Below, in pieces: positions 11,420-25,234 of a stretch of DNA of 64,000 nucleotides. Position 1 is the stretch's first letter; every line of letters begins with the position of its first letter. The notes under the pieces are model-generated. The model saw only the letters and a program-made list of their open reading frames with translations. It did no database searches and was not told the origin of the DNA. Origin of the DNA: a virus; the IMG/VR virus record IMGVR_UViG_3300037010_002844, positions 64,001 through 128,000 of that record; one strand, written 5' to 3'. Made by a program: the position numbers and the translations under genes.

Positions 11420-12449
11420 ACGCTTTTCCTATCCGATGAACGCCAGGTCGAGGATCTTTCAGGATCTCAAAAAGCTTTTTCAAGCAATCAGGTTCGAAGC
11501 GACCGCCATCCTTGTATGAGAACTGATCGTAAGAAATTCGAATGAGTGTCCAATCATGTTTAGTGATGTAATCATCAAGCATTGCATCCATGCACTTCAC
11601 TCGTTCAAAATTATCCTCGCCTTTAATACGTGCATTAAAATGGATGATTCCATCAAATTCAACATAAATGTGTCTTGATCGATCGGCAATGTCAACTTGC
11701 TTTCTTTTAGATTTGTTTGGAAAAGCAACTGACTTGACGACCTGATTATGAACAAAATCATAACCTTCAACGTTTTTCAACAAATCAAACAACGCTAATT
11801 CCGGAATGCTATGCCAAATAGCATGTGCAGCTTTTGTGCACTTTTCGTAGAACTCATCGGGGTTCAACTCACGCCAACGGGCCAGGCGCTCAGCACGTGC
11901 CTTGAGTATCTCAGGCCGGGTTGACGTTAGTCTTGCAACGTCTGATGAACGTTTACGGGCTTCAGGTCGTCGATTAAGTTCTCCCATTAGTTCAGAGCGA
12001 CGTTTCCTCTCGCCCGGATTGCTCGTGATGGCCTCACTGACCGCACGGCCCATCTTTTCCTTGTAGGCAGTCAAATCATCACCGCGTGCCTTCGCTCGTT
12101 TGAGCCAGGCGAAATTCTGCCCACGATGCTTGAAACGCGCTGTCGAGACTTTCGATGTGATTGCGGCAGTCGGGTACGCTTTCAGGTATTCTTCTTTGCT
12201 CATACCATGCGTCCCCGACAAGTGCTTTGCCAGTGCCTTACCCGTGAAGCCACAGACTTGGCATGTGACACTCTCACTGTCACCGAGTATGAATCCTTGG
12301 CACCTAGCTTGGTGTTTTTCGTAGGCCTTCAGGTAGACGAAGAGCCTGCTACATCGGTCACAACGATGCTGAGGCCCCGTTCGGCAATCATCCACAGGGG
12401 CAACATCTCGTTTGTCTCCTTCGTCCTGAACTTGTGATCCCACGTGCAC
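11400..12449 (-). CDS. free-standing homing endonuclease HE4, Vsr-like (EDxHD-type) nuclease core
   Basis: C-terminal core RSRHIYVEFDGIIHFN...WTLIRISYDQ (the Vsr-like 'vEfDG..H' motif). The N-terminal Cys/His-rich region has CDRCSRLF and CQVCGF. The annotated start overlaps the IntN of piece G in another frame, so the real start is probably internal. Confidence 0.75.
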   Translation of the reverse strand: MHVGSQVQDEGDKRDVAPVDDCRTGPQHRCDRCSRLFVYLKAYEKHQARCQGFILGDSESVTCQVCGFTGKALAKHLSGTHGMSKEEYLKAYPTAAITSKVSTARFKHRGQNFAWLKRAKARGDDLTAYKEKMGRAVSEAITSNPGERKRRSELMGELNRRPEARKRSSDVARLTSTRPEILKARAERLARWRELNPDEFYEKCTKAAHAIWHSIPELALFDLLKNVEGYDFVHNQVVKSVAFPNKSKRKQVDIADRSRHIYVEFDGIIHFNARIKGEDNFERVKCMDAMLDDYITKHDWTLIRISYDQFSYKDGGRFEPDCLKKLFEILKDPRPGVHRIGKAYEKTAV

Positions 12450-13030
12450 TTTACCTTCTCTCCGGTCACCAACTCCACTTCTACCAAGTCTAGCTCACCG
12501 TGGTCGTGTTTTGCAACAACAGGGACGAGGATGTTTTTACCTGAATTCTCATCACGAGACATGACCAGGTCGCCGGGTTCGATGTGTTGAAGCTGCTTTG
12601 TCTCTTTGAACGTGCCGTCTGAAAAAAAGGTATTTACTGGTTCCGAAAAGTACAAACTTTTATTGAAGCCGTAGCCCGCGAAGTACAGAATCTTGTCGTA
12701 GAGGTTGTTGGCCACCTTCTCGGTATAACCGTTGGCGATGCAACCCTTGACGAACCCGTCACGGGTCTCTTGGGCTGCCTTCTTTGCCGCCTCACCGCCC
12801 GAGATGCTGCGCTTCATGATTGCGCGACGGACCTCGTCACACTTGTCCTTCGGGAAGCCGGCAGCCTTCTCGGCGAGTTCCATCACCTGTTCCTGAAAAA
12901 TTATGCAGTTATGCACGAGAAGGCCATTTGCGAAGAAGTTGTTGTTCTTCTTGACCTGGATGTCGTACACAGGCTGTGCAGGAACACGCTTGATCGCACG
13001 GATCTTGACGGGAACTACGTCAGGCATCAC
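12329..13030 (-). CDS. dnaE: DnaE piece G: IntC (12908..13030) + 83-aa extein (12659..12907) + IntN (12332..12658)
   Basis: IntC ...PVYDIQVKKNNNFFANGLLVHN, then CIIFQEQVMELAEKAAGF...VRRAIMKR...YFAGYGFNK (DnaE: IILYQEQVMQIAQ...LRRAMGKKK...KFAGYGFNK), then IntN SLYFSEPVNTF...TWDHKFRT (blocks A/B). Confidence 0.85.
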   Translation of the reverse strand: MMPDVVPVKIRAIKRVPAQPVYDIQVKKNNNFFANGLLVHNCIIFQEQVMELAEKAAGFPKDKCDEVRRAIMKRSISGGEAAKKAAQETRDGFVKGCIANGYTEKVANNLYDKILYFAGYGFNKSLYFSEPVNTFFSDGTFKETKQLQHIEPGDLVMSRDENSGKNILVPVVAKHDHGELDLVEVELVTGEKVKCTWDHKFRTKETNEMLPLWMIAERGLSIVVTDVAGSSST

Positions 13031-13662: not shown

Positions 13663-13830
13663 TCAAGTTCTTGTGGCAAGCGTCCATAATTGATCAAGCC
13701 TAAATTGCTTCTTCATCGCAGGTGTTAGTTCATGCTTCGCTGGGTTACTGTGCCAATAGTCGCCGTCGTACTCGATGATGAGGTTGAGTGATGGCACGAC
13801 GAAGTAGCCTGGTTTCAGTACTTCATTCCC
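13663..13830 (-). pseudogene. truncated Vsr-like homing-endonuclease remnant (nuclease-core fragment only, no start codon)
   Basis: Third-frame translation NEVLKPGYFVVPSLNLIIEYDGDYWHSNPAKHELTPAMKKQFRLDQLWTLATRT* contains the 'IEYDGxYWHS' Vsr-like motif. It overlaps the 3' end of piece F and has no upstream Met. Confidence 0.5.
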
Positions 13831-14414
13831 AAAATCTCGTCTTCAGACGTCAGTTCACCTGCTTGCACCCAACCACGAGGCGTCATGACAAGGTGATCTT
13901 CAGTCAAAGACAAAGTTTCTCCACCCTCCAGCTCAACCTCGATGATGTCACGTACGCCGTTTGAGGCGACAGCGACAACTTCGTCCATCTCGACGGTCTT
14001 CGTCATTTCATTGTATGACGGAAGCTTAGTTCCCACCATTCCTTGTTCAACGATTTGTCTAATGGGAACCTCACCTTGCTCAGTAAGGATATGTGTGTCA
14101 CCCGTCAAACACGAGTATGTCTTCTTCAGGATGTCGTTGACGCGGTGATCGCCCCACTCCAACTCCTTGCCGTCATTCTTCGCCTCCAAGTACAGTCGAT
14201 CGACTTTGGCGGCCAAGGGACCCGGGCGATAGATGCTGGTCAGCGTCGCGATGTCGATGATGCTCTTGGGCTTGCCTTTGACAAAGAGTCGCTGAGCGCC
14301 CTGGCCCGTGCAATTGTGAACAACGACGTCGTTAGCGACGAAATTATGATGATTTCGCACCTCGATGTCGTAGACGTGGCGCTTACCCACGCTGCGTGAT
14401 GACACAAGCTTCAA
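13815..14414 (-). CDS. dnaE: DnaE piece F: IntC (14313..14414) + 67-aa extein (14112..14312) + IntN (13818..14111)
   Basis: IntC MKLVSSRSVGKRHVYDIEVRNHHNFVANDVVVHN; extein CTGQGAQRLF...IATLTSIYRPGPLAA...ILKKTYS (DnaE 'ALFRPGP' and '..TYG' motifs); IntN CLTGDTHILTEQG...SLTEDHLVMT. Confidence 0.85.
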   Translation of the reverse strand: MKLVSSRSVGKRHVYDIEVRNHHNFVANDVVVHNCTGQGAQRLFVKGKPKSIIDIATLTSIYRPGPLAAKVDRLYLEAKNDGKELEWGDHRVNDILKKTYSCLTGDTHILTEQGEVPIRQIVEQGMVGTKLPSYNEMTKTVEMDEVVAVASNGVRDIIEVELEGGETLSLTEDHLVMTPRGWVQAGELTSEDEILGMKY

Positions 14415-15171
14415 GCGTCGTCTCCTTCTTTTCTAGCAACTGTAGGTCATATCCACTGACAAGTGCACACTTGAGCGTCGGATGCAACGTTACGAATGCG
14501 TCAAACTTCTCCCTAGCATCATCACGCCACCAGCCCTTGACTTCCACGTACACCCGCTTAAAGAGCTCCAACGTCGGTCATTGACGATGGAAGATCATGT
14601 ACGCCTCTCTTGTGAGCTGGATCCTGATCTCCTCCTCGCTGAAGCCCTCGTCCATGCAATGACGCCAGTTGTCATACAGGTCGACGACGCCATTCTTTCC
14701 GTTCCCGTTGCCCGCTGAGTGCAGAAAGTACAAAGGGGCGCTACGATGAGCGGAGCGCGTCCGTACAATCACATGTTGCGGAGTCGTGGGCCTGTTGCGT
14801 CTCTGTAAGGCGACATGGCCACGGTCGCGGCGAAACCTGCGACCAAAACGCCCGCCTCACGTCAATCCACGAGCTTCGTAACCACTGCTAGACCCAATCA
14901 ACTCGTCGTCTTCGGTTAGGTGCTGTGCCTCAACCCACCCGCGATTCTTCGTCAAGATGGGATGATCAGCGGTGCAGACAAGCTTCTTGCCGTCGTCGAA
15001 CACGAGCTCGATGCACTCCTTGGGTCCTTGGTCGTAAACGACGTCGACGACTGATGTGGTGAACTGCTGCTTGACTTCATCGAAGACCGTCACCTCGTCA
15101 CCGACATGGACGTCCTTGATCAACTTGTACGAGTCATCGCCCATCAGCACTGCCGTGTCCTGGTCGACGCA
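14313..15171 (-). mobile_element. split-intein site 5 (E|F): IntN 14860..15171, decayed mini-nuclease gene 14383..14772, IntC 14313..14414
   Basis: As above; the intervening nuclease gene carries an in-frame stop. Confidence 0.7.
14383..14772 (-). pseudogene. mini PD-(D/E)XK nuclease gene (paralog of 23817..24137 and of the HE1 C-terminus) interrupted by one in-frame TGA at 14578..14580
   Basis: Track ORFs 14578..14772 and 14383..14571 are in the same frame, separated by a single TGA. The joined product ...YMIFHRQ*PTLELFKRVYVEVKGWWRDDAREKF aligns with the paralog ...HQIFVHDESVYYEIKGRWSDKACY, which has no stop at that position. Confidence 0.5.
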
Positions 15172-15333
15172 CTGGAAGATGCCTGCCCACTTGCCTTTCT
15201 CGTAGACCTCGTAAGGTTTGGGATCGGTGAAATCAATGACGGCCGGGTGCATGTGCTGCTCGAACCAGGTCTTGATGTCATTGAATGATACCGCATTTGT
15301 ATGTGCGTCAACGTTAGCAACGACTTTTGCCAT
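14857..15333 (-). CDS. dnaE: DnaE piece E: 54-aa extein (15172..15333) + IntN (14860..15171)
   Basis: Extein ...VIDFTDPKPYEVYEKGKWAGIFQ (DnaE 'IPLDD...TAVFQ'); IntN CVDQDTAVLMGDD...CTADHPILTKNRGWVEAQHLTEDDELIG. The first 13 aa, MAKVVANVDAHTN, resemble a vestigial block G. Confidence 0.8.
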   Translation of the reverse strand: MAKVVANVDAHTNAVSFNDIKTWFEQHMHPAVIDFTDPKPYEVYEKGKWAGIFQCVDQDTAVLMGDDSYKLIKDVHVGDEVTVFDEVKQQFTTSVVDVVYDQGPKECIELVFDDGKKLVCTADHPILTKNRGWVEAQHLTEDDELIGSSSGYEARGLT

Positions 15334-17116
15334 GTCTTTGTAAAGGTACTTTCACAGGTCCATAACGTACACCGCGTTGGAGCAACCAAAGATCTTAAAA
15401 AGCCTGTGTTCCATCGCCATCTCTTCTTGTGATGCGATCCCCGGAATCGCCCTGACAGCAAATCTATCGATACGATTTTGTCCGTCCGTCCACCAAAACC
15501 TAGGCTGCGTCATGTGATCAAATCTAAAACCAGATAGTTCATACGCCCGGCCAGTGCCACCCAACCTCATGTCACGGTATGTGATCATTTTTTGGTAACC
15601 ATGCTCACGTGACCAATCCCTGGCAGCGTTGATCAACCGCGACATGCCTCCAACGACGATGGTATCGCGGGCCGTTGAAACCCGCGCCAATTCAATTGTC
15701 TTAGATCCCCACTTAGTCTGCTGGTGCGGTTTTCGCAATGTCAATGCACAAATAATGTTTCCAGCAATGTCCTCTAGCCAGAACGAATGCGACGAAGGAG
15801 TGTTTCCATCGAGGTGATTGTTCGCCATGAACTGAGCGGTGATGGCTGGACGACCGCTGCGAAGATGTAGCTTTCGTGCCATCACGCGAGTAGCAAGACC
15901 AAGCTTTACCCTGATCATGCTTTTGATGATGTTTTTCTTTACATCATGGTGCCATTCATCGTCGAAGATATGTAGCAACGACACACCACGCTCAAGAGCG
16001 CGAGTCGACTTGTCTTGGTGATACGATGGTGGAGTACCGGTCGCCTCACTGTGCCAATAGACACCGTTGCACTCGATGGCAATCCTTCCGTTACCTGACA
16101 CGATGTCCAGCTCATAAGGCGCGATTGACTGTCTGTCGTTGGCGATGGCGTTCGAATCGAGCTTGACGAAGAAATCGAACACCTCACGATGCCAGCGAGA
16201 GAAATTAGCCGGGTAGCACGTTGAACACACCTTTCCCTTGTAAAGGACGTTAAAGGGAACAATATCAGGTACGTTACAACTGACGCATGTCACATGCACC
16301 GGTGTTGAGTATCCAGCAAACTCAAATTTTTCGATGTTCCACCTCGACCGCAGTGCATCAACTCGCCGTTCGACCTCTTCGAGAGACAACCGAAAAGGAG
16401 AGTTAGTGCCGTTCTCGATAAGGCGTTTTCTAGTCTCGATGATCGAACGTTTGATATCTTCAGAATTAGCGTTCCGAGACCAATGATTCAAGCGAACGCC
16501 TTCGCCGATCCGTTCTGATCGCCGTTTGATCCTATCGTCAGTTTCTGACGTCTGACCGTGCTGCGTCCAGTGTTTTTCTACTTGCCATTTTTCAGTCAAT
16601 GCTCGAGAGATGTTATGCGCAGCTCTTGTGATAGATTCATTATTTTCTTTAGTTTGTCCTGTTCTCCAGTGCCCGTGTTTTTTGATGAAATCACGACAAC
16701 CTTGTGCGGCCCTTCGAACCGATTCAGACGTTGTTTCTGACAGCCCCTTGTTCCATGCAGGCAATGATTTTGATTTCCGGCTAAGCGCACCTCTTACTTG
16801 AGAGTTCTTCTTGCTACAAACTCCACAGAGACGTTCATATCCCGTTTGAAAGGTCATGAACTTGACCGGCCCTGAACACTGAACGCACGGTCCAGGGTGC
16901 TCTCGAAAAAGAAGGTACGCAGCCTCCGCATTGAGCCCGTGCTTTTTAAGGAGATGTGCGCGGAGCGAATTTAGGCTAGCTTTTCGCAATGGATCATTGC
17001 ACTGTGGGCACCTCGAAGGACACGATGTCATCGCCGGGCCCGAGCTCCCTCGCAAGGATGGTGCCCCTGTTGCTGGTGACGATTCGTTGGTCGCCGTAGA
17101 CGCCTCGTGTCGTTCC
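15295..17116 (-). mobile_element. split site 4 (D|E): HE3 insertion with no intact intein; Hint-N-like tail on D and a vestigial block-G-like head (MAKVVANVDAHTN) on E
   Basis: The D tail GTTRGVYGDQRIVTSNRGTILARELGPGDDIVSF lacks Cys1 and block B; the E head ends ..HTN|A, with no nucleophile. Confidence 0.45.
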
Positions 17117-17151
17117 ATCGTCGAGTTGGATCTCAAACCACCCTCTTTCAT
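15352..17151 (-). CDS. free-standing homing endonuclease HE3: Zn-finger + NUMOD3 repeats + Vsr-like nuclease + conserved C-terminal domain
   Basis: C2H2-like CPQCNDPLRKASLNSLRAHLLKKH. NUMOD3-like repeats (...SETDDRIKRRSERIGE...). Nuclease core GRIAIECNGVYWHSE. The C-terminal ~200 aa (ARKLHL...HLDGN...VVGGMSRL...RFWWTD...DRF) is shared with HE2. The annotated N-terminus overlaps piece D, so the real start is likely internal (~17118). Confidence 0.8.
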   Translation of the reverse strand: MKEGGLRSNSTMERHEASTATNESSPATGAPSLRGSSGPAMTSCPSRCPQCNDPLRKASLNSLRAHLLKKHGLNAEAAYLLFREHPGPCVQCSGPVKFMTFQTGYERLCGVCSKKNSQVRGALSRKSKSLPAWNKGLSETTSESVRRAAQGCRDFIKKHGHWRTGQTKENNESITRAAHNISRALTEKWQVEKHWTQHGQTSETDDRIKRRSERIGEGVRLNHWSRNANSEDIKRSIIETRKRLIENGTNSPFRLSLEEVERRVDALRSRWNIEKFEFAGYSTPVHVTCVSCNVPDIVPFNVLYKGKVCSTCYPANFSRWHREVFDFFVKLDSNAIANDRQSIAPYELDIVSGNGRIAIECNGVYWHSEATGTPPSYHQDKSTRALERGVSLLHIFDDEWHHDVKKNIIKSMIRVKLGLATRVMARKLHLRSGRPAITAQFMANNHLDGNTPSSHSFWLEDIAGNIICALTLRKPHQQTKWGSKTIELARVSTARDTIVVGGMSRLINAARDWSREHGYQKMITYRDMRLGGTGRAYELSGFRFDHMTQPRFWWTDGQNRIDRFAVRAIPGIASQEEMAMEHRLFKIFGCSNAVYVMDL

Positions 17152-17851
17152 GTCGTTCCTTTTTGATGATGAGCTCGATGGCGCGCTCGATGAGCCGCAT
17201 CGTTTCTAGACCTAGGAGGTCGTACTTGATGAACTCTCCGATCTTCTCAAGGTGTTTATAATTTACGCCCTCGACCCAAGGTGACTGTGGCTCGCGGACG
17301 CCGGCCTTGCCTTTGGACGTCACCAAAGGCATCTTGTTGGGCAAATCGTCTGCAATCAGCACACCACCCGCGTGACGACCGAGACTACGATTCTGCTTGA
17401 AGAGGATCTTGATCGACTCGGCGACGACCGGGTACTTCTCAATGAAGCCGCGAAACGACGGGCTGACCGGCTGCTTACACTCTGGGCTACAGCCCTGGCA
17501 GATGGACTTCGACTCCGGGCCCTTAGGAGCCCTGCAGTGGAAGGCCATGGCCTCATCGTAGGTCAAGACGAACAGATTCTTGTCGTCGCCTTCCTTCATC
17601 GTCGCCTTACGGACCTCGTCCTCGACGGTCCGCGTGGCAGCGTTGGTCTCCTCGAATGGGATGCCGTAGAACTTGCCGATATCCTTTACAAGCGTTTTTA
17701 GTTTGAAACAGTTATAATTGCTGATGGGAACGACGTTTTCCCACCCAAAAAAGTTTCGAAGTTCATCAAGAACCTCATCTCGCCTGGCAAGATCGGTGTT
17801 GTGAACAACGACGCTCTTGTTGGACGCCAAAAATGAATGAACGACCATCAC
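16994..17851 (-). CDS. dnaE: DnaE piece D: 18-aa IntC-like head (17798..17851) + core extein; the ~40-aa C-terminal tail is non-DnaE-like (Hint-N-like, no Cys1)
   Basis: MMVVHSFLASNKSVVVHN|TDLARRDEVLDELRNFFGWENVVPISNYNCFKLKTLVKDIGKFYGIPFEE (DnaE: RRDEVIDYV..YG.D.VAQI.TFGTM.AKAAIRDVGRVLG.PY) ... GRHAGGVLIADD...YDLLGLETMRLIERAIELI (DnaE: KHAGGVVI...FDFLGLRTLTII). Confidence 0.85.
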   Translation of the reverse strand: MMVVHSFLASNKSVVVHNTDLARRDEVLDELRNFFGWENVVPISNYNCFKLKTLVKDIGKFYGIPFEETNAATRTVEDEVRKATMKEGDDKNLFVLTYDEAMAFHCRAPKGPESKSICQGCSPECKQPVSPSFRGFIEKYPVVAESIKILFKQNRSLGRHAGGVLIADDLPNKMPLVTSKGKAGVREPQSPWVEGVNYKHLEKIGEFIKYDLLGLETMRLIERAIELIIKKERHERGWFEIQLDDGTTRGVYGDQRIVTSNRGTILARELGPGDDIVSFEVPTVQ

Positions 17852-20436
17852 ATGAATCCTAACTCAACTACAGTTGAATTTACATGCGCTCGTTGTGGTC
17901 GAAACCACGAAACGCTACGAGCATTGAAGATCCACGAGGCACGACACAGGCGAGAAGACGCCAGGCCTCCCAAACAGGTGTCAACTTACGCGTGTCCGTG
18001 GTGTGAGGCGTCATATGACAGCGGGCGTAAGTTGACATTGCACTGCACAAAAACGCACCAAAAATCACCCGTCGTTGTGTATGAAACAAGGTACCCAGGG
18101 TGCAGGAAGACGTGCATCGATTGTTGCGACTGGGTCAGGTTCATCGATCAAGAAAAAGGATACCCCGAACGGTGTCCACGTTGTAGCCGAAAACACGCAT
18201 ACGCGTCCAAGGGCACCTCGTCATGGAACAAAGGCCTGACGAAAGACAATGACGAACGCATGTCAGCCAGTGCTGCAAACATGCGAGCTCACTACAAGGA
18301 ACACGGTCACCACAACTCCGACAAGACAAAGGAAAACAACGAAAGCCTTAAACAAAAGGCGGCAAAAATCAGCGACAGCCTGCGGAGGTATTATGCAACG
18401 CACAGCGGCTGGTCACTTGGCCTGACAAAGGATACGTCTAGCATCATTGAATCTCGCAGTAAGAAGATCAGCGCTTCGTTGAAAGGACGATTCTTTAGCG
18501 ACGTAACGCTTGAAAAAATGCGCAAGGCAAAGTTGCTGACGCACGACGAGGTACAAAAACGCCTCAAAGAAAAGCAGCTTAAACTCATTGACGAATATGT
18601 CGATACTGTCACCAAAGCGCGCATCGAATGCACGATATGTTCAACAATATTTGAGCGTTGCGTTGGCGCAGTGTTCAACAACGAGGCCAAGTGTCCCACC
18701 TGCTTTCCGCCTTGGTCAGACAAAACGAGCAGGTGGCAACAGGACGTCTACGCATTTATCCAGACGCTGGCACCTGACGCAGTCCTTAGCGATCGTAAGA
18801 CGCTCGGCGGAATGGAGCTCGACATACTCATTCCATCGCGCATGTTTGCCATCGAGTGCAATGGCCTATACTGGCACAGCGAGGCCGCCAATAGATTTGA
18901 GCACGATCACGCGGAAAAGAAGAGATTGCTGTCCCTCAAAGCCGGCGTATCGCTTTTCACGTTATTTGAGGATGAGTGGCGCGACAAACGACCGATAATC
19001 GAAAGCATGTTGCGCCATCGCCTTGGGTTTTCTACCAAAGTCGATGCGCGTAAGTTGAAAGCAGAACGCTGCGAGCCCGAAGAAGTTCGAGAATTCATCA
19101 ATCAGTGCCACCTCGACGGTCACGTGAGGGCCCAATTTGCCGTGCGATTGGTAACCTCATCGGGCGAAATCGTAGGCGCCTGCAGCCTTAGGTGGGCACG
19201 AAATGGGGCAGACAGAACGACGATTGAGATCGCTCGCCTGTGCTTCAAGCTTGGCACACATGTACGAGGCGGGGTGTCAAAATTGCTATCAAAGGCAAAA
19301 GCTATAGCAAGAGAAAACAATGCAGCGAGGTTGATGTCTTACTCAGACAATCGCTTGGGAGGAAACGGTTATGCCACCTCAGGCATGAAGTTCAACGGTA
19401 CCACAGTCGCTCGCTTCTGGTGGACTGACTTCATGCATCGTTACGACAGGTTCAAGTACCGAGCCAACAAGAAGCAAGGTCTAACAGAAAAACAGGTAGC
19501 GGAGGCTGCCGGCGTTTATCGCATCTATGGCTGTAGCAACTCTCGCTACGTCTTAGACGTCACAGCGTGACGCTAATGTCATCGTCAAACTTTGAGGACG
19601 CATTTTCTTTGAGCCAGAAGATGGCGTCAATTGTGCGCTCGTCGGCGTCGGCGTCATCGCACGACGTAGCCCCATAGTATGGGGGCCAAATCGTGCTCAA
19701 ACCCTTTAACGCGCAGTTTGACCTGACAATCTTGAAATTCAGGATTTTCTGCAGCTCTCGTCTGAGCTATTCTTTCCAGGCCAGACACTATCACATCATC
19801 TGCTCGGCAGAATCGCCGTTGTCTGTAAGCTGCACCGCATCAACGTTGCTCGGACACGGTCCCAACTCCAGCTCAAATTTCATAGTTGCGCTCGCTGTGG
19901 TCTGTTCTTCTCTTAGACGCGCACCAATCGCTGCAAAAATTGTCTCCTTCGCCACACGCAAGGAACGTGCCAGGAATGACGCCCATGCAATAACCGACGT
20001 CATGTGATGGATCACCTCCACTTAGAATGGACGTATTGAACGGTACCACGTGGAATCTGTGATCGTCTTCAACAGTCAGGTCGACGTATCTAGCGTTGGA
20101 AGAGCCCCAACCACCGTGCTCGATCGATACGACCTCAACGCTGCCGCATGATGCCATCAATTCATCTCCGACCTTAAGGTCGCGGCAGTACACGATGACG
20201 CCGTCAGCTCTGACAAATTTGTGACCGGGCACCACCAAAATGTGGCCCAACGTACCATCATTGGCCCTAACTCTGACCCAGACAGCGTCCTCGAATGGCC
20301 GCAAATTTCTAGCATAGGTCGCAGTTACTGCGTGTGGCATTCCATCGCCTCCCAGGACGACGTCGCCGACAATGATGTCAACAGCTCGCTTATGAGTGCC
20401 GTCTGTCATGACGACAAGATGGTCCTCGTGGACGCA
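17798..20436 (-). mobile_element. split-intein site 3 (C|D): long IntN with blocks A/B/F (19876..20436), HE2 on the opposite strand (17837..19570), 18-aa IntC carrying block G only (17798..17851)
   Basis: The IntN tail ...YVDLTVEDDHRFHV plus the IntC head SFLASNKSVVVHN|T together reconstruct a contiguous F-G block (compare HNFVANDVVVHN of piece F). Confidence 0.55.
17837..19570 (+). CDS. free-standing homing endonuclease HE2 (opposite strand to dnaE): Zn-finger + NUMOD3 repeats + Vsr-like nuclease + conserved C-terminal domain
   Basis: CARCGRNHETLRALKIHEARH; NUMOD3 repeats (WNKGLTKDNDERMSASAANMRAHYKEHGHHNSDKTKENNESLKQKAAKISDSL...); nuclease core RMFAIECNGLYWHSE; C-terminal domain homologous to that of HE3 (ARKLKA...HLDGH...VRGGVSKL...RFWWTD...DRF). 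Confidence 0.8.
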   Translation: MNDHHMNPNSTTVEFTCARCGRNHETLRALKIHEARHRREDARPPKQVSTYACPWCEASYDSGRKLTLHCTKTHQKSPVVVYETRYPGCRKTCIDCCDWVRFIDQEKGYPERCPRCSRKHAYASKGTSSWNKGLTKDNDERMSASAANMRAHYKEHGHHNSDKTKENNESLKQKAAKISDSLRRYYATHSGWSLGLTKDTSSIIESRSKKISASLKGRFFSDVTLEKMRKAKLLTHDEVQKRLKEKQLKLIDEYVDTVTKARIECTICSTIFERCVGAVFNNEAKCPTCFPPWSDKTSRWQQDVYAFIQTLAPDAVLSDRKTLGGMELDILIPSRMFAIECNGLYWHSEAANRFEHDHAEKKRLLSLKAGVSLFTLFEDEWRDKRPIIESMLRHRLGFSTKVDARKLKAERCEPEEVREFINQCHLDGHVRAQFAVRLVTSSGEIVGACSLRWARNGADRTTIEIARLCFKLGTHVRGGVSKLLSKAKAIARENNAARLMSYSDNRLGGNGYATSGMKFNGTTVARFWWTDFMHRYDRFKYRANKKQGLTEKQVAEAAGVYRIYGCSNSRYVLDVTA

Positions 20437-20610
20437 GTCGATATCAGGAGCACCAGAGTTATGTGTCAGCACCCAATCGCTATCGTTGTTGGACACCCAA
20501 AACGTATGCTGGCCTTCGACCTCGATGTCGATGAGTTCTACACTTTCATCGACAACCTCGATAGCTTCAATTTTGGCCGTGCTTGCTGATGAGATGTTGG
20601 GTTCCTGCAT
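19873..20610 (-). CDS. dnaE: DnaE piece C: IntC (20458..20610) + 7-aa extein SGAPDID (20437..20457) + long IntN carrying blocks A, B and F (19876..20436)
   Basis: IntC ...ELIDIEVEGQHTFWVSNNDSDWVLTHN; extein SGAPDID (DnaE 'SMPDIDIDF'); then CVHEDHLVVMTDG...GDVVL (block A), TLGHILVVPGHKF (B), ARYVDLTVEDDHRFHV (F-like), then a ~55-aa tail. Confidence 0.75.
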   Translation of the reverse strand: MQEPNISSASTAKIEAIEVVDESVELIDIEVEGQHTFWVSNNDSDWVLTHNSGAPDIDCVHEDHLVVMTDGTHKRAVDIIVGDVVLGGDGMPHAVTATYARNLRPFEDAVWVRVRANDGTLGHILVVPGHKFVRADGVIVYCRDLKVGDELMASCGSVEVVSIEHGGWGSSNARYVDLTVEDDHRFHVVPFNTSILSGGDPSHDVGYCMGVIPGTFLACGEGDNFCSDWCASKRRTDHSERNYEI

Positions 20611-21788
20611 AGTCCCTGTGCTCTAGATTGGCAATCGTATGGTACAAACCTTGTCGACGAAGTTCACCATAGAAGTCATTCATGTACACGACGTCGATGC
20701 GCTGACCAGACGCCACAACGACTTCCCGTGAACGTGCGTTTGAGTTAAGCAACTTTGAGAAACGCGATTTGCCTTCTCGCACACCTTTCAACTCCACGTA
20801 TCGGTCCTCATCACTGAACCAAAAGTCTGGAGTGTAACACTTCTCTTTGCCATCGATGACAACATGGAAAGACCTATGTTCATAGAATGGCATCTTACCG
20901 AGGTGCAAGCAATATCTGTAGTAGTCGGCTTCGAACGAGCTCTTGAAGTACGGGCTGTTTAGGATGTCGGAACGAAAACACGAGCGTCCGTTCACATGTG
21001 AAGCAACCATATCACGTGACTGTGCCTCGCGGGTGCACCGTTTGGAACAGAACCGCGGCACGTAGCTCTTCTTGGTGACGATCGGTTCGCTACAAACTTC
21101 GCATACCAACGTGTGGCGGTCAAACCTCGATGCAGCGAAACATTTGGGTGAACAGAACCTGCGATTGACGTTCTTCGTTGAGAAAGTGCCTAGACACTGT
21201 ACACATGTCAGTGTACGGAGCTCATTCTTTGTCAGCGCTTTCGCAGTGTACTTGTGCCTGCACGCATTCGAACATAGTTTTCTGTTGTTGTGACACTTTG
21301 GAACGTAGAACTCATCGCCGTACTCGACGCACGTCTTCACAAGCCTCGAGGGCATGGGAGCGTGTGACATCAGCTTCCTGTGAGCGACGGCACACTCATC
21401 AGTGCAGTACGGGCGATGGAGCCTACTACCAGAACCCTTGCAGTTGGGCTCATAGTTGAACTGAAACATAATACCACAGTGTTTACACTGTTTCTCAATG
21501 ATGCTCATAGTGGTACGTGTACAGCTCGTCACTCGTCGACAGCTCAGATGTATACTTCTTCACAGGTTGTCCATCAGGACCCACTGTCAACCACACATGA
21601 TTTTCAGAACACGTGAACGTAGTACCATTCACCTTCACGCGGTACGTCTTCTCATGTTTTGTGGTCATGGTGAACGTAACTTTACGGTGTGAGCCATCCT
21701 GTGAGACAACGCTGTCACCGACTTTCACGTCTCGAAGCGCGGACGACGAACCATCTGACATCAATACCTTTGTGTCTGGCGACAGACA
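20458..21788 (-). mobile_element. split-intein site 2 (B|C): IntN 21498..21788, HE1 20567..21532, IntC 20458..20610
   Basis: As above; the HE gene overlaps both intein halves in other frames. Confidence 0.75.
20567..21532 (-). CDS. free-standing homing endonuclease HE1: tandem zinc-ribbon array + C-terminal mini PD-(D/E)XK nuclease
   Basis: At least six CxxC pairs ([40 protein letters not shown]). C-terminus [37 protein letters not shown] is a D...E.K nuclease motif shared with ORFs 23817..24137 and 14383..14772. Both gene ends overlap the intein halves of pieces B and C. Confidence 0.65.
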
Positions 21789-21992
21789 CCTGTGAACGCT
21801 AAGGAATCGCGCGAAAGGCAGGTCCCAGAACAACGGGTCCAAGTCGGTGATGTATAGGACGTAGGCGACCAGAGAGCCACCGCCCGAATTGTGGACTGCA
21901 ATACCTTCCACGTTGTAAGTGTGGCTGTTTTCCACACACAGGTCTACGACCTCACCCTTATACGGTACGACAGTCTTACTTCTGAGCTTCAT
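21495..21992 (-). CDS. dnaE: DnaE piece B: IntC (21888..21992) + 33-aa extein (21789..21887) + IntN (21498..21788)
   Basis: Int[36 protein letters not shown]; extein [33 protein letters not shown] (DnaE: GSGAGSLVAYALGITDIDPL.YDLLFERFLNPER); Int[14 protein letters not shown]...CSENHVWLT. Confidence 0.85.
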
Positions 21993-22352
21993 GATATGCG
22001 TTCGCTCTCTTCATGTAAGCCTTGAGATCCCTGTCTAATAGACATTTGACGAGGATCAGGTAAACTTAGTTGAGTTTCATTCAACCTCGATTAGGTCATC
22101 ATCTTCAGTCAAGTGTTGTGCTTCAATCCACCCACGATTCTTCGTCAGAAACTTATGCTCCTTGGTGCACCTGATCTTCTTACCGTCATCAAACTCGAGT
22201 TCTAGCAGCTCCTCATCAACCTGATACCTGAAGATCTGAGTCACCATCTGATCAACACCATATGCATCCTTGATAACGTCGCCCACCTTGATGGTGCCAA
22301 TGGGAGCATGCATGCCGTCAGCCATTAGAACCCGCGTCTCAGGAACGAAACA
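21888..22352 (-). mobile_element. split-intein site 1 (A|B): IntN 22080..22352, 84-nt spacer with no HE, IntC 21888..21992
   Basis: Hint blocks A/B in IntN, F/G (..VHN|S) in IntC; the halves sit in separate ORFs with their own stop and start codons. Confidence 0.75.
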
Positions 22353-23762
22353 ACCGCGGGCTGGGCCGGTAAGGCACACATTGCGTGCCAGCTCCATGAT
22401 CTTCTGGTAGGAAATGAAGTAGTCAGAGTTTTTCATCACCTTAATGACGCCGAGTTCCTCCTTGAGGCGCGCGATATACTCTGGCTTGTCTTGAAGACCA
22501 CGCTTCACCATGCCCACCTTACAAAGCGAGATGAGGTGATTGAACGAGGTCGTGCCTTCGGGCACCAACAACCTCGTCGGAAACTTGGGCGAACGATCGG
22601 GTGGAATCTCCCCGATGACACTGTGTGCGATATCGTGAGTCCGCTCAATGGCGTCACAGACGACTTCATCGTCATACCAGTCGGTGCCTTCCTTGGAGCG
22701 CTGGTACTCATCCCACATCTGTTGGGCGTTCTTCGGATAGAGCTCACACTTCAGCTCATCCTTCGACTTCGGAATCGCGTCAGGATTGATCTCCTGGTAG
22801 TTCATCCAACCCAGGCGCTTGTAGAGCTCACGGTCCTTCCAACGATCGGGATTATAGTAGTGAGCATCGCCGGTGACGATCAGCTGCTTGTTGAGCCCAT
22901 TGCGACGAGCGAACTCCAGGATCGCGCGGTTGACGAGGTTCTGCGCCGGTAGGCGATTGAACTGCAGCTCGAGGAAGTAGTTTCCTTCGCCGACTGCATC
23001 GACCATGTGCTGGTAGGTATTGCCCACCGCGACAACGCATTTCTCGAGCAGCACAGGGTCACTGAGCAACCGTGCGTCGAGCTCGTCAAACTTGTACTGT
23101 TGGATTTCCTGGAATATGGAGTACGCCGGCATGCCGCCGATACAAGCGCTGCTGACGATGATGTCGCCGCCTTTGGCTGCCTCTTTGAGGACAGCATGGT
23201 CAATGCGCGGGAACTTGTAGAAGCCCTTCAAGAATCCCTTCGAACATGCTGCGAAGATCGCCAACAGGCCCTTCTGGTTCTTGGGCAGAATGACTAGGTG
23301 ATGCCGTCGGTTGACGGGATTGAAGTGTTTGGTCGATTTGGACTCTTCCTCGTTTTCGACAGTCAAGGCGTTGGACATCTCAATGTCCTCAGTCTCATCA
23401 TTTTCATCGATGGTGGCGATGATCTTGGTCTGCAGCTTTTCCTGCTCCTTAGCAAGCTTGGCCGCAACCCTCCTGTCTCCCTTCGCCTGCTCTGCGAGTT
23501 CGACGTCCTTCTTCCATTGCTCCAGGTCGGGATGGTAGTACGCCTCGACGCCGGGAATGTACTTGAACGACTTTCCCTTATTGGCCTTGGCCCACTCCTC
23601 GACCCACAGTTGAGCGTGGGCATAGGAGTTCATGTTCCCGTGCTCGGTGATGGCATGGCCATCGAGCCCGTTCTCCATGCACCACTTGAAGTGTTCATCG
23701 GGATAGCCCAAACCATCGAAGGGCGCATTACGAGAAGCCCGTGTGGTTGTGCAAACCGACAA
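22077..23762 (-). CDS. dnaE: DnaE piece A: PHP-domain N-terminal extein (22353..23762) + IntN (22080..22352)
   Basis: PHP motif ...GLDGHAITEHGNMNSYAHAQLW...KYIPGVEAYY; extein ends ...VCLTGPARG (DnaE 'GPGRGSAAGS'); IntN CFVPETRVLMADG...CTKEHKFLTKNRGWIEAQHLTEDDDLIEVE. Confidence 0.9.
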   Translation of the reverse strand: MSVCTTTRASRNAPFDGLGYPDEHFKWCMENGLDGHAITEHGNMNSYAHAQLWVEEWAKANKGKSFKYIPGVEAYYHPDLEQWKKDVELAEQAKGDRRVAAKLAKEQEKLQTKIIATIDENDETEDIEMSNALTVENEEESKSTKHFNPVNRRHHLVILPKNQKGLLAIFAACSKGFLKGFYKFPRIDHAVLKEAAKGGDIIVSSACIGGMPAYSIFQEIQQYKFDELDARLLSDPVLLEKCVVAVGNTYQHMVDAVGEGNYFLELQFNRLPAQNLVNRAILEFARRNGLNKQLIVTGDAHYYNPDRWKDRELYKRLGWMNYQEINPDAIPKSKDELKCELYPKNAQQMWDEYQRSKEGTDWYDDEVVCDAIERTHDIAHSVIGEIPPDRSPKFPTRLLVPEGTTSFNHLISLCKVGMVKRGLQDKPEYIARLKEELGVIKVMKNSDYFISYQKIMELARNVCLTGPARGCFVPETRVLMADGMHAPIGTIKVGDVIKDAYGVDQMVTQIFRYQVDEELLELEFDDGKKIRCTKEHKFLTKNRGWIEAQHLTEDDDLIEVE

Positions 23763-24211: not shown

Positions 24212-25234
24212 CTAGGCGATGACCTTCCGGAAGTAATCGATGGAACGTTTGAGGCCTTCTGCGAGCTGCACCTTGGGCTCCCACCCTAGACGATTCTGGG
24301 CTTGGGTGATGTCGGGCCGACGCTGCGTCGGGTCATCGACAGGCAGCGGTTTGTAGTCAAACCAACGGGCCACATCGCGGTGAGGTGCCTCGCGCCCACC
24401 GTAGATTTGGTGAATGACCTCCTTCGCCAACTGATTCATCGTGAACTCGTGCGGGTTGCCGAGGTTGATGGGCATCCGCGGGTTGTTGCCCAGATCGCCC
24501 AAGGTCACAATGCCTTTGATCAGGTCGTCCACGTAACAAAAGCTACGTGTCTGTTGACCGTCACCGTAGATCGTCAACTTCTCGCCCTTCAAGGCCTGGA
24601 CGATGAAATTGCTGACGACCCGGCCATCGTATGGGTCCATGTGCGGACCGTAGGTGTTGAAGATCCGGACCATGCGAGCGTCGACACCGTGGGTATGTAG
24701 GTAGTCATAGCACAGGGCCTCTGCCGCACGTTTTCCCTCGTCGTAACAGGCTCTGGGCCCGTAGGAGTTGACGCGACCTCGGTATGACTCGACCTGCGGC
24801 GAACTCTCGGGATCACCATAGACCTCAGAAGTCGAAGCGTGGACCACGATCGATCCATGCGATGCCGCCAGTTCCAGGACGTTCTGGACGCCTAGCGTAC
24901 AGGTCATCATGGTCTCCACGGGCATGCGCTGGTAGATGGGCGGCGATGCTGGGCAGGCGAAGTTGTAGATGATGTCGAAGCGTACCGAGTGCATCGACCC
25001 GGTGTCGTAATCGTGAATCACGCGACTAAAGCGACTGTCTCCATGGACGTCAGCGATATCGCAGTACATCAACGTCGCCAGCGGAAACTTCTTGATCTCA
25101 TCGACCTGAATCGACTCCGGCTTCGACGAACAGAAATTGTCGAGGCCGAGGACCTTGTCACCCGCCCTCAAGTGATGTAGCATCAAGTGCGAACCCAGAA
25201 AACCAGCGGCTCCCGTGACGAGGACAGTCTTCAT
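24212..25234 (-). CDS. UDP-glucuronate decarboxylase (UDP-xylose synthase, UXS-type SDR)
   Basis: VLVTGAAGFLGSHL; ASTSEVYGDPE; GPRACYDEGKRAAE; RIFNTYGP; GRVVSNFIVQALKGEKLTIYGDGQQTRSFCYVDDL. This is near-collinear with eukaryotic/bacterial UXS (ASTSEVYGDPE..GPRACYDEGKRVAE..RIFNTFGP..GRVVSNFILQAL.GE.LTVYG.GSQTRAF.YVSDL). Confidence 0.85.
   Translation of the reverse strand: MKTVLVTGAAGFLGSHLMLHHLRAGDKVLGLDNFCSSKPESIQVDEIKKFPLATLMYCDIADVHGDSRFSRVIHDYDTGSMHSVRFDIIYNFACPASPPIYQRMPVETMMTCTLGVQNVLELAASHGSIVVHASTSEVYGDPESSPQVESYRGRVNSYGPRACYDEGKRAAEALCYDYLHTHGVDARMVRIFNTYGPHMDPYDGRVVSNFIVQALKGEKLTIYGDGQQTRSFCYVDDLIKGIVTLGDLGNNPRMPINLGNPHEFTMNQLAKEVIHQIYGGREAPHRDVARWFDYKPLPVDDPTQRRPDITQAQNRLGWEPKVQLAEGLKRSIDYFRKVIA

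What the first reader, a model, noticed from the sequence alone, without database searches (positions are those of the whole stretch)
17798..20610. Site C|D may be a naturally split intein cut between blocks F and G, leaving an 18-aa C-half; its HE is on the opposite strand and it follows a 7-aa extein
In piece C the intein after the 7-aa extein SGAPDID carries blocks A (CVHEDHLVVMTDG..GDVVL), B (TLGHILVVPGHKF) and also an F-like block (ARYVDLTVEDDHRFHV), then a ~55-aa tail and a stop.

Piece D starts MMVVHSFLASNKSVVVHN|TDLARRDEV. That head is a block G only (compare HNFVANDVVVHN|C in piece F), with +1 Thr.

Joined, the two ends (…DHRFHV + ASNKSVVVHN) reproduce the contiguous F-G block of the other inteins in this gene. 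Canonical natural split inteins break between blocks B and F, giving an IntC of ~35-40 aa. A break between F and G with an 18-aa IntC would be a new natural split topology, of interest for protein ligation. HE2 (17837..19570) sits on the plus strand, antiparallel to the host gene.
Basis: inference. Interest (0 to 1): 0.75.

Follow-up and report, generated by a model that had tools for sequence, protein, structure and literature searches.

The report
Natural split intein, 17-residue C-half
A phage DNA-polymerase gene is cut inside a self-splicing protein element at an unusual point that leaves only a 17-residue C-terminal half; about 44 related sequence clusters share this layout, and it had been made only artificially, as a protein-ligation tool.

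Summary
On the minus strand, piece C (19873..20610) encodes IntC of intein 2, the 7-residue extein SGAPDID, and an N-intein that carries blocks A, B and a complete block F. Piece D (16994..17848) starts MVVHSFLASNKSVVVHN|TDL. Stop codons in all three frames just upstream rule out a longer IntC.

This is not a one-off accident.
- About 44 protein clusters of D-homologs start with the same 16-20 residue head, and none carries a canonical 35-50 residue IntC at this site.
- The HSFL and SVVVHN codons are under strong purifying selection (pN 0.012, pS 0.74).
- Intein-free alleles read PDID|TD, and two distant relatives carry the same intein unsplit.
- The homing endonuclease is antisense here and in four other lineages; two lineages have unrelated genes in its place.

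The IntC also carries a near-invariant HSF motif that matches the distal part of block F. The break therefore lies in a family-specific insert after the first block F strand. Whether it corresponds to the engineered S10 site or the S11 site is unresolved, because AlphaFold2 did not dock the IntC.

Trans-splicing activity is inferred, not shown. The literature I could search knows natural atypical splits only with short N-halves.

The parts
20458..20610 (-). IntC of intein 2 (51 aa, ...DWVLTHN), the N-terminal part of piece C
   Evidence: Translation. Weak match to the C-terminal end of Pfam Intein_splicing. The same head precedes SGAPDID in P0005-P0009 and P0012-P0017.
20437..20457 (-). 7-aa extein SGAPDID, carrying the PDxD motif of the Pol III alpha palm
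   Evidence: Intein-free alleles read ...RKGAPDIDTDLADRDKV (P0030, P0034, P0012-17).
19990..20436 (-). IntN of intein 3, conserved core of 149 aa (Cys1 to ..SHDVGY). Block A is at 20398..20436, block B at 20215..20256, block F at 20038..20088, and the conserved post-F segment at 19990..20037.
   Evidence: Pfam PT-HINT positions 13-123 of 137. PDB phmmer matches to the HINT domain of 8w20 and to the BIL domain 2lwy. AF2 gives a confident Hint fold for residues 1-138. Foldseek TM 0.75-0.81 against mini-inteins. Ten homologs at 43-87% identity all stop near ..GY.
19873..19989 (-). Lineage-specific 38-aa four-Cys tail of IntN3 (CMGVIPGTFLACGEGDNFCSDWCASKRR...) plus the stop codon
   Evidence: Present only in the window, P0002, P0003 and P0004. 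Weak resemblance to the xxFC[ST]xxC repeat of HE1.
19571..19872 (.). 302-bp spacer between the end of IntN3 and the 3' end of HE2, with no convincing ORF
   Evidence: No Rfam family.
17837..19570 (+). HE2, a free-standing homing endonuclease gene antisense to dnaE (alternative start at 17852)
   Evidence: phrog_3339 homing endonuclease, E 3.5e-59. 32% identical to same-strand HE3. Antisense homologs at 45-59% identity sit in the same position in L019, L022, L024 and L026.
17798..17848 (-). IntC of intein 3, 17 aa: MVVHSFLASNKSVVVHN (alternative GTG start at 17851 gives 18 aa). AGGA lies 8 nt upstream of the ATG.
   Evidence: Conserved head in about 44 clusters. Purifying selection on the HSFL and SVVVHN codons.
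16994..17797 (-). Remainder of piece D: the C-extein starting Thr+1 (TDLARRDEV..., Pol III alpha palm), followed by a 53-aa non-extein tail
   Evidence: Pfam DNA_pol3_alpha positions 110-260 of 260. Homologs found.

Best explanation
**What it is.** Intein 3 of this phage dnaE gene sits in the catalytic PDxD motif, at PDID|T. It is a naturally split class-1 intein whose break lies far towards the C-terminus.

**The two halves.**
- Piece C makes IntC2-SGAPDID-IntN3. IntN3 is a nearly complete Hint domain with Cys1, the block B His and the block F Asp. Its conserved core is 149 aa, and this genome adds a 38-aa four-Cys tail.
- Piece D makes a 17-aa IntC (HSFL leader, short loop, then the terminal strand SVVVHN) followed by Thr+1 and the rest of the palm domain.

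**Proposed reaction (inferred).** The short, slightly basic IntC docks onto the acidic, pre-folded IntN and supplies the last strand or strands of the Hint fold together with the His-Asn pair. The usual four steps then follow:
1. N-S acyl shift at Cys1.
2. Trans-esterification to Thr+1.
3. Asn cyclisation.
4. O-N shift.
The product joins ...SGAPDID to TDLARR... and restores the polymerase motif.

**Why the break is here.** It lies in a family-specific insert after the first block F strand. Free-standing endonuclease genes also sit at that point, antisense in this lineage, and that most likely fractured the intein there.

**Shown versus inferred.**
- Shown: the anatomy, the fold of IntN, conservation, purifying selection, presence/absence polymorphism, and the existence of unsplit relatives.
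- Inferred: docking and splicing activity.
For: 1. **No longer IntC is possible.** The frame is closed by a stop three codons upstream of the GTG (no start between) in the window and a few codons upstream of the start in L020, L022, L025 and L026.
2. **Every locus with this IntN has the short IntC downstream.** This holds in seven diverged loci of this sub-family (IntN 43-67% identical) and in one of a second sub-family (L027). The gap is 1.6-5.6 kb with variable content: an antisense HE, 15 small ORFs, or a DnaJ-like gene.
3. **Counts among D-homologs.** Of 113 clusters, about 44 start with the short head (modal length 17 aa; the second type is 20 aa), 49-52 have an empty site, and none has a canonical-length IntC.
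4. **Selection.** For the HSFL+SVVVHN codons pS is 0.74 against pN 0.012, while the loop codons vary freely.
5. **Catalytic set.** Cys1, His72 (block B), Asp119 and His126 (block F) are invariant in the aligned IntN3 sub-family (11 sequences). The terminal Asn is kept in all 44 IntCs, and the residue before it is His in nearly all (Ser in a few). Residue +1 is T, S or C in 44 of 44.
6. **Fold.** IntN3 folds as a Hint domain. It aligns with canonical block F of the five other inteins in the same gene.
7. **Mobile-intein pattern.** Intein-free alleles exist, and so do two unsplit relatives at the same site, P0178 and P0235.
8. **Charge complementarity.** IntC averages +1.4 and the IntN tail -2.2.
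9. **An engineered split of this kind works.** NpuDnaE IntN123/IntC15 splices robustly (PMC2664965).
10. **No RNA route.** No group I or II intron signal was found in the locus.
Against: - No experiment exists. Splicing is inferred from conservation only.
- AlphaFold2 did not place the IntC in either run: pLDDT was below 50 for residues 139-176 in one run and 152-176 in the other. Docking geometry and register are therefore unknown.
- Both halves carry an HxF-type strand, and both cannot occupy the same slot.
- Block B has Pro where the canonical TxxH has Thr.
- No promoter or terminator signal above chance was found around the divergent starts.
- A Shine-Dalgarno sequence is clear only in the window, not in most relatives.
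- Novelty rests on a literature library that lacks most subscription-journal papers.
Confidence: 0.75

Rival explanations
1. The intein halves are inactive relics. Either the dnaE pieces assemble without covalent joining, with the Hint fragments acting only as interaction domains, or the gene is decaying after HE2 inserted into a once-contiguous intein.
For: - Splicing is untested.
- AF2 does not dock the IntC.
- The next junction, D|E, appears to be exactly such a case: it has intein-like segments without Cys1 or a terminal His-Asn.
- Non-covalent assembly of a fragmented phage enzyme is known (PMC3045599, listed).
Against: - Cys1 (IntN3 sub-family), the terminal Asn and a T/S/C at +1 are invariant, and the penultimate His nearly so; together with pN/pS of about 0.016 on the IntC core this is not expected for a mere docking peptide or a pseudogene.
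- The break falls between the two Asp of the PDxD motif and the rest of the palm, where a 150-aa bulge would be hard to tolerate.
- The arrangement persists in lineages that have lost HE2 (L020, L025).
Confidence: 0.13
2. The true register is S10-like and the IntN is self-capped. In this reading the IntC (HSFL + SVVVHN) is the genuine distal block F plus block G. The IntN segment DHRFHVVPFN...GY is a built-in placeholder that mimics those strands in cis, keeps the large IntN soluble, and is displaced when the IntC binds. This is a sub-variant of the main explanation rather than a contradiction of it.
For: - The IntC core matches canonical HNFxAxGxxxHN with only 1-2 extra loop residues.
- The IntC His is kept in about 40 of 44 sequences, whereas the His of the IntN strand is kept in only 20 of 46.
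- IntN3 truncated at ..TVED and joined directly to the IntC matches PT-HINT over positions 13-136 of 137.
- MAFFT aligns canonical block G onto the IntN tail ..SHDVGY.
- Engineered caged split inteins use the same principle (mentioned in PMC11923092).
Against: - Unsplit relatives P0178 and P0235 keep the IntN-type strand, and their second motif is weak (NSC, or absent).
- AF2 puts RFHVV in a strand right after YVDLTV in both models.
- D-H-x-F and P-F are invariant within this sub-family.
Confidence: 0.35
3. Artefact: a frameshift, a mis-assembly or a missed start hides a conventional ~35-aa IntC. Alternatively the two halves are joined at the RNA level or by translational recoding.
For: In L019 and L024 the upstream frame stays open, because it is antisense to the HE.
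Against: - Five independent assemblies are identical.
- Stops occur in all frames in the window and within 1-10 codons upstream in four other lineages.
- The ATG keeps a fixed distance from HSF in most of the ~44 clusters.
- The open upstream stretches have no intein-like sequence.
- No intron family was found.
- The gaps hold up to 15 unrelated genes.
Confidence: 0.02

Closest known systems
Fractured genes with canonical natural split inteins and a free-standing homing endonuclease (Dassa et al. 2009, PMC2677866: gp41-1, NrdJ-1, IMPDH-1, three DnaE loci)
   Same: - Phage or metagenomic replication gene.
- Intein halves on separate ORFs.
- A Vsr/PD-(D/E)xK-type HE gene between them.
- Overlapping ORF ends.
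- Several inteins per gene.
Inteins 1, 2, 5, 6 and 7 of this very gene are of this kind.
   Different: - Their IntN is 88-105 aa and their IntC 33-54 aa, split at the canonical endonuclease position. Here IntN is 149 aa or more and contains block F, and IntC is 17 aa.
- The HE here is antisense and overlaps the IntC start head to head.
Engineered C-proximal split inteins: NpuDnaE IntN123/IntC15 and SspDnaE IntC16 (Aranko 2009, PMC2664965); S11 splits of Ssp DnaB/GyrB/DnaX and Ter DnaE3 with a 6-aa IntC (PMC3620165, PMC2794532)
   Same: - A large IntN holding nearly the whole Hint fold.
- An IntC of 6-16 aa that supplies the last one or two strands and the His-Asn pair.
- The 14-aa core of the IntC aligns with the Npu IntC15 sequence pattern HNFxxxNGxxxxN. 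I wrote the Npu sequence from memory; the split position comes.
   Different: - Those are man-made, and several need refolding or splice poorly.
- This one is natural and conserved, with an extra 16-aa (or longer) conserved IntN segment after block F and a Cys1/Thr+1 nucleophile pair.
Natural atypically split inteins with a short IntN (AceL-TerL, GOS-TerL, VidaL, PolB16 OarG)
   Same: A natural break away from the endonuclease position: one short fragment of 15-37 aa and one near-complete Hint fragment. They are found in phage or metagenomic genes.
   Different: In those the short fragment is the N-half (S1/S2 sites). Here it is the C-half, the mirror-image topology.
Cyanobacterial split DnaE intein (Ssp/Npu DnaE)
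   Same: The host protein is Pol III alpha and the pieces are assembled by trans-splicing.
   Different: The insertion site differs and the split is canonical, about 102-123 aa plus 35-36 aa. The genes lie far apart in a cellular genome with no HE.

Membership tests
Intein (Hint domain, class 1) | Block A with a nucleophilic Cys/Ser as the first residue, directly after the N-extein | tested here: met
   Cys at 20434..20436 follows PDID. It is invariant in 10 homologs and in about 40 wider family members.
Intein (Hint domain, class 1) | Block B TxxH motif | tested here: inconclusive
   His72 is invariant, but the Thr position is Pro (VVPGHKF) in this sub-family. The wider family has T/S/N-x-x-H.
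Intein (Hint domain, class 1) | Block F (conserved Asp and the HxF strand) and block G ending His-Asn, followed by Cys/Ser/Thr at +1 | tested here: met
   The IntN carries YVDLTVEDDHRFHV. The IntC carries SVVVHN followed by Thr. Residue +1 is T35/S7/C2 in 44 clusters.
Intein (Hint domain, class 1) | Hint fold | tested here: met
   Met for IntN3 only. AF2 gives pLDDT of about 80-90 over residues 10-130. The best Foldseek PDB hits are mini-inteins and BIL domains, probability 1.00, TM 0.75-0.81 normalised to the target. The position of the IntC is not resolved.
Intein (Hint domain, class 1) | In-frame insertion at a conserved site of a host protein, with intein-free alleles whose sequence equals the joined exteins | tested here: met
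   The site is PDID|TD of Pol III alpha. Between 49 and 52 homolog clusters are uninterrupted.
Intein (Hint domain, class 1) | Protein splicing activity | not testable with these tools
   Needs co-expression or in-vitro ligation, or junction-peptide proteomics.
Naturally split intein / fractured gene | N- and C-halves on separate ORFs, each with its own stop or start, conserved across relatives | tested here: met
   Eight loci (the window, L019, L020, L022, L024, L025, L026, L027) with gaps of 1.6-5.6 kb.
Naturally split intein / fractured gene | A free-standing homing endonuclease gene between the halves | tested here: met
   HE2 matches phrog_3339. It is antisense, unlike the published same-strand cases. 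It is absent in L020 and L025 and on the same strand in L027.
Canonical (S0) split intein | Break at the endonuclease-domain position between blocks B and F, so that an IntC of about 33-54 aa carries all of blocks F and G | tested here: not met
   The IntC is 17 aa and block F lies on the IntN.
Known natural atypical split inteins (S1/S2) | Short IntN of 15-37 aa and a long IntC | tested here: not met
   IntN is 149-187 aa and IntC 17 aa. The definition is taken from PMC13014065.

The most novel reading that the evidence does not exclude
This would be the first natural family of split inteins broken next to the C-terminus, and it may work by a built-in cage. In that reading the large IntN carries its own pseudo-copy of the last strands (DHRFHVVPFN...GY), which keeps it folded and soluble. 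The 16-17 residue IntC (HSFL..SVVVHN) displaces that copy to switch splicing on. Evolution would then have optimised an IntC short enough for peptide synthesis, and produced a natural example of strand-displacement activation in a Hint domain.
Probability: 0.25. Interest if true: 0.9.

Novelty: new variant of a known kind. Interest (0 to 1): 0.78.

Why it matters
**Tool value.**
- Split inteins are standard tools for protein ligation, labelling and gene-therapy payload splitting.
- The field has wanted fragments short enough for chemical synthesis. Natural examples exist only for short N-halves.
- Short C-halves had to be engineered, and artificially split inteins often lose rate or solubility (PMC2664965, PMC13014065).
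- A naturally evolved pair with a 16-17 residue C-half, available in dozens of diverged variants, would be a direct candidate for C-terminal semisynthesis and possibly for orthogonal pairs.

**Biological value.**
- It shows that gene fracturing by homing endonucleases is not tied to the canonical endonuclease insertion point of inteins.
- It shows a replicative polymerase being rebuilt from eight or more pieces. One of them contributes only seven residues, and those carry the PDxD motif.

Tried and rejected
- **Near-identity search in deposited phages:** no match. A protein-level search found only DnaE genes of cultured phages at 31% identity or less, and none has the head.
- **Identical contigs:** L001-L005 turned out to be the same genome, so they give no diversity information and serve only as a sequencing check.
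- **Viral loci:** all thirteen found with piece D lack intein 3.
- **MAFFT misalignment:** MAFFT repeatedly aligned the short IntC heads onto the block B segment VPGHKFVKxDG. Local trials were needed to find a workable set.
- **PDB phmmer with unsplit relative P0178:** no informative C-terminal alignment.
- **Promoter and terminator scan:** at chance level.
- **Rfam:** no family in the dnaE locus, which argues against an RNA-splicing explanation.
- **Duplication created by HE insertion,** as an explanation for the two HxF motifs: rejected as the sole cause, because the unsplit relatives already have the IntN-type strand plus an insert.


Full report
**Context.** The minus strand between about 10068 and 23762 carries one Pol III alpha (dnaE-type) gene broken into at least eight ORFs (one search gives Pfam PHP, DNA_pol3_alpha and finger hits). 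The pieces are:
- A: 22077..23762
- B: 21495..21992
- C: 19873..20610
- D: 16994..17851
- E: 14857..15333
- F: 13815..14414
- G: 12329..13030
- H: 10068..11198

Homing-endonuclease-like ORFs lie between several of them. This is the "fractured gene" arrangement that Dassa et al. described in 2009 for phage-derived metagenomic DNA, DnaE included. The window matches no deposited phage at the DNA level. At the protein level it is at most 31% identical to DnaE of cultured phages. Its exact proteins occur on metagenomic contigs of up to 309 kb, and relatives occur on IMG/VR contigs of up to 369 kb. The source is therefore an uncultured large phage.

**The observation.** Piece C reads IntC2 (51 aa, ending THN), then SGAPDID, then CVHEDHLVVMTDG.... 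The N-intein has block A, block B (GTLGHILVVPGHKF) and a full block F (YVDLTVEDDHRFHVVPF).
- Pfam PT-HINT covers profile positions 13-123 of 137.
- PDB phmmer aligns it to the HINT domain of 8w20 and to positions 70-130 of the 138-aa BIL domain 2lwy.
- In an alignment with the five canonical inteins of the same gene, its block F stands on theirs.

Piece D begins MVVHSFLASNKSVVVHN|TDLARRDEV. A TGA lies three codons upstream of the GTG in that frame, with no start codon between, and stops occur in the other frames too. Five assemblies from different samples are identical here, so this is not a sequencing error. HE2 (17837..19570, plus strand) matches a phage homing-endonuclease family and is 32% identical to the same-strand HE3.

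**The exteins.** FARFLSVHR + SGAPDID + TDLARRDEV reproduces the uninterrupted sequence of relatives...FARFLSVYRKGAPDIDTDLADRDKV (P0030, P0034; also P0012-P0017, which have intein 2 but not intein 3). The 7-residue extein is therefore real. From general knowledge of Pol III alpha (not tested here), PDxD holds two of the three catalytic aspartates. Intein 3 thus sits immediately after the second one.

**Relatives of the N-half.**
- Ten clusters at 43-87% identity keep the same IntN. All of them stop shortly after a conserved segment...DHRFH[VI][VI]PF[ND]V...GY. The natural IntN is about 149 aa.
- The 38-aa four-Cys tail of the window is shared only with P0002, P0003 and P0004.
- An exhaustive profile search found 69 proteins at E<1e-10. 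In nearly all of the sequences I examined, the match lies at the C-terminal end of a DnaE N-fragment.
- Two proteins are unsplit at the same site:
  - P0178: ..PDID|CLLSTT...LTDITTTTKSFNIAPFDVAENITSPHHYMVCGLNSCLQNNLTIVSHN|SDCADRE
  - P0235: ..PDID|CILDTS...TFQIFPFIVDEFYTAQYYNENSNMNFTLCSHN|TDCIPS
- The family therefore has a 25-31 aa insert between the IntN-type strand and the terminal strand, and the natural break lies inside that insert.

**Relatives of the C-half.** In every locus that has this IntN, the next dnaE piece starts with a short head:

| Locus | Head |
|---|---|
| L019 | MTIHSFLAKNYSVVVHN |
| L020 | MLKRHSFLQKGHSVVVHN |
| L022 | MMLHSFLSKGHSVVVHN |
| L024 | MVAVHSFLKTGKSVVVHN |
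| L025 | MIVHSFLKSGKSVVVHN |
| L026 | MIDHSCLAKGHSVVVHN |

- In-frame stops lie just upstream in four of these loci.
- A second sub-family pairs a related IntN with MLVTTIHSFKKKNFWVGSHN|SD (L027).
- Among 113 D-homolog clusters, about 44 begin with such a head (modal length 17 aa; 20 aa in the second type), 49-52 are uninterrupted, and none has a 35-50 aa IntC.
- Across seven loci the HSFL and SVVVHN codons show pS 0.74 against pN 0.012. The four loop codons vary freely (pN 0.67).
- The residue after the head is always T, S or C (44 of 44). At empty sites it is T, S or C in 43 of 52.
- The heads are slightly basic (+1.4 on average) and the IntN tails acidic (-2.2).

**What lies between the halves.**
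- Antisense HE2 homologs at 45-59% identity occupy the gap in L019, L022 (frameshifted), L024 and L026.
- L020 has 15 small same-strand ORFs in that position. L025 has a DnaJ-like gene plus one more. L027 has a same-strand HE.
- In the window, and by alignment in L026, the HE start overlaps the IntC start head to head by 12 nt. ATG-GTC-GTT-CAT (M-V-V-H of the IntC) is the reverse complement of ATG-AAC-GAC-CAT (M-N-D-H of HE2).
- No Rfam family, and so no group I or II intron, is detected in the locus. With the variable gene content of the gap, this rules out joining at the RNA level.

**Structure.**
- Two AF2 runs were made on a fused IntN3(1-149)+IntC3 sequence.
- Both gave a confident Hint fold for residues 1 to about 138, including the strands YVDLTV and RFHVV.
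- Both left the post-F tail and the IntC below pLDDT 50.
- The best Foldseek hits are mini-inteins and BIL domains: 6bs8, 6riy, the gp41-1 structure 6qaz, and 2lwy at rmsd 2.4 over 136 columns.
- IntN3 is therefore nearly a whole Hint domain. How the IntC docks is not resolved.

Reading 1 (S11-like): the IntN strand DHRFHVV is the distal block F strand, and the IntC contributes a leader plus block G.
- HMMER, MAFFT and AF2 all treat the IntN strand that way.
- D-H-x-F and P-F are invariant within the sub-family.
- The unsplit relatives keep this strand.

Reading 2 (S10-like): the IntC core HSFLxxxxSVVVHN is the genuine distal block F plus block G.
- It matches canonical HNFVANDVVVHN and HQFYLANGILTSN of the same gene with only 1-2 extra loop residues.
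- Its His is kept in about 40 of 44 sequences, whereas the His of the IntN strand is kept in only 20 of 46 family members.
- IntN3 cut at ..TVED and joined directly to the IntC matches PT-HINT over positions 13-136 of 137.
[quoted passage not shown] The IntN segment after it would be an insert that mimics the missing strands.

**Literature.**
- Dassa 2009 reports IntC parts of 33-54 aa. Its only unusual break is a terminase intein with a short N-part.
- A 2025 review and papers from the Mootz laboratory in 2025 and 2026 describe natural atypical splits only with short IntN fragments (15-37 aa). The 2026 paper places those natural breaks at the S1 or S2 positions, and the review describes S11-type short IntCs as synthetic.
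- Targeted searches for short natural C-inteins found nothing.
- The library lacks most subscription journals, so prior description cannot be excluded.

**Verdict.**
- The most likely explanation is an active, naturally split class-1 intein with a 16-17 residue C-half. It was fractured at a non-canonical point where endonuclease genes reside.
- Activity and docking geometry are inferred, not shown.
- I rate it a new variant of a known kind, of high interest to intein specialists and protein engineers.

Noticed in passing
window 19873..20610 (piece C): This whole 245-aa protein is two intein halves flanking only 7 extein residues (SGAPDID, with the PDxD motif). Building the polymerase therefore needs two trans-splicing events on one heptapeptide. 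The same IntC2-heptapeptide-IntN3 protein exists in P0005, P0006, P0008, P0009 and P0127.
   Followed up: partly
window 16997..17155 (tail of piece D) and 15298..15333 (head of piece E): The D|E junction is not a normal intein.
- D ends with a conserved 53-aa segment (RHERGWFEIQLDDGTTRG...DDIVSFEVPTVQ) that has no Cys1.
- E starts with about 12 non-extein residues (MAKVVANVDAHT) that have no His-Asn.
- Uninterrupted alleles read ..ELILQKEGNPSPTFDDIKAWYE.
- Relatives keep both segments.
This may be a non-splicing fragment-complementation module.
   Followed up: partly
window 17837..17851: The HE2 and IntC3 starts overlap head to head by 12 nt. Each gene's ATG is the antisense of the other's fourth codon, CAT (His). 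The long HE2 start aligns in L026, and HE2 homologs abut the IntC start in L019 and L024. Any promoter for either gene must lie inside the other gene.
   Followed up: partly
window 19876..19989: A 38-aa four-Cys tail on IntN3 (C-x10-C-x6-C-x3-C) is conserved only in the window, P0002, P0003 and P0004. Its NFCSDWCASKRR resembles the xxFC[ST]xxC repeat that occurs four times in HE1, so it may be a remnant of a same-strand HE gene. MAFFT also aligned its start (VIPGTFLACGE) with IntC heads (xxxHSFLxKGx).
   Followed up: partly
window 15352..17151 versus 16994..17851: The HE3 ORF (599 aa, same strand as dnaE) overlaps the 3' end of piece D by 158 nt. HE1 overlaps the end of piece B by 38 nt and the start of piece C by 44 nt.
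   Followed up: no
window 21993..22076: Intein 1 (A|B) is split with only an 84-bp gap and no endonuclease gene between the halves.
   Followed up: no
window 12329..12700 (end of piece G) and 11088..11198 (head of piece H): Intein 7 starts with Ser (GFNK|SLYFSEPVN...) and ends ..GILTSN|SHAVAYA. That makes a Ser1/Ser+1 pair with Ser instead of the penultimate His, possibly a cysteine-less split intein.
   Followed up: no
window 13663..13797 and 14383..14772: Short ORFs with endonuclease-like fragments (..LNLIIEYDGDYWHS.., ..VYVEVKGWWRDDAREKF..) lie between pieces F|G and E|F. They look like decayed homing endonuclease genes.
   Followed up: no
protein P0003 (relative of piece C): Its IntN3 carries an internal tandem duplication of about 20 aa (VEVVSIEHGGYFMPKLEEGNFWIVSIEHGGYGSS) in the loop before block F.
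   Followed up: no
IntC heads versus block B, window 20215..20256: The IntC head (MxxHSFLxKGxSVV) is similar enough to the block B segment (VPGHKFVKxDGxxV) that MAFFT repeatedly aligned the two. This probably reflects the pseudo-twofold symmetry of the Hint fold.
   Followed up: no
window 24212..25234 and loci L020, L022, L024, L025: An NAD-dependent epimerase/dehydratase gene lies on the 5' side of dnaE in the window and in diverged relatives, either adjacent or with up to a few small ORFs between. This is conserved synteny in this phage clade.
   Followed up: no
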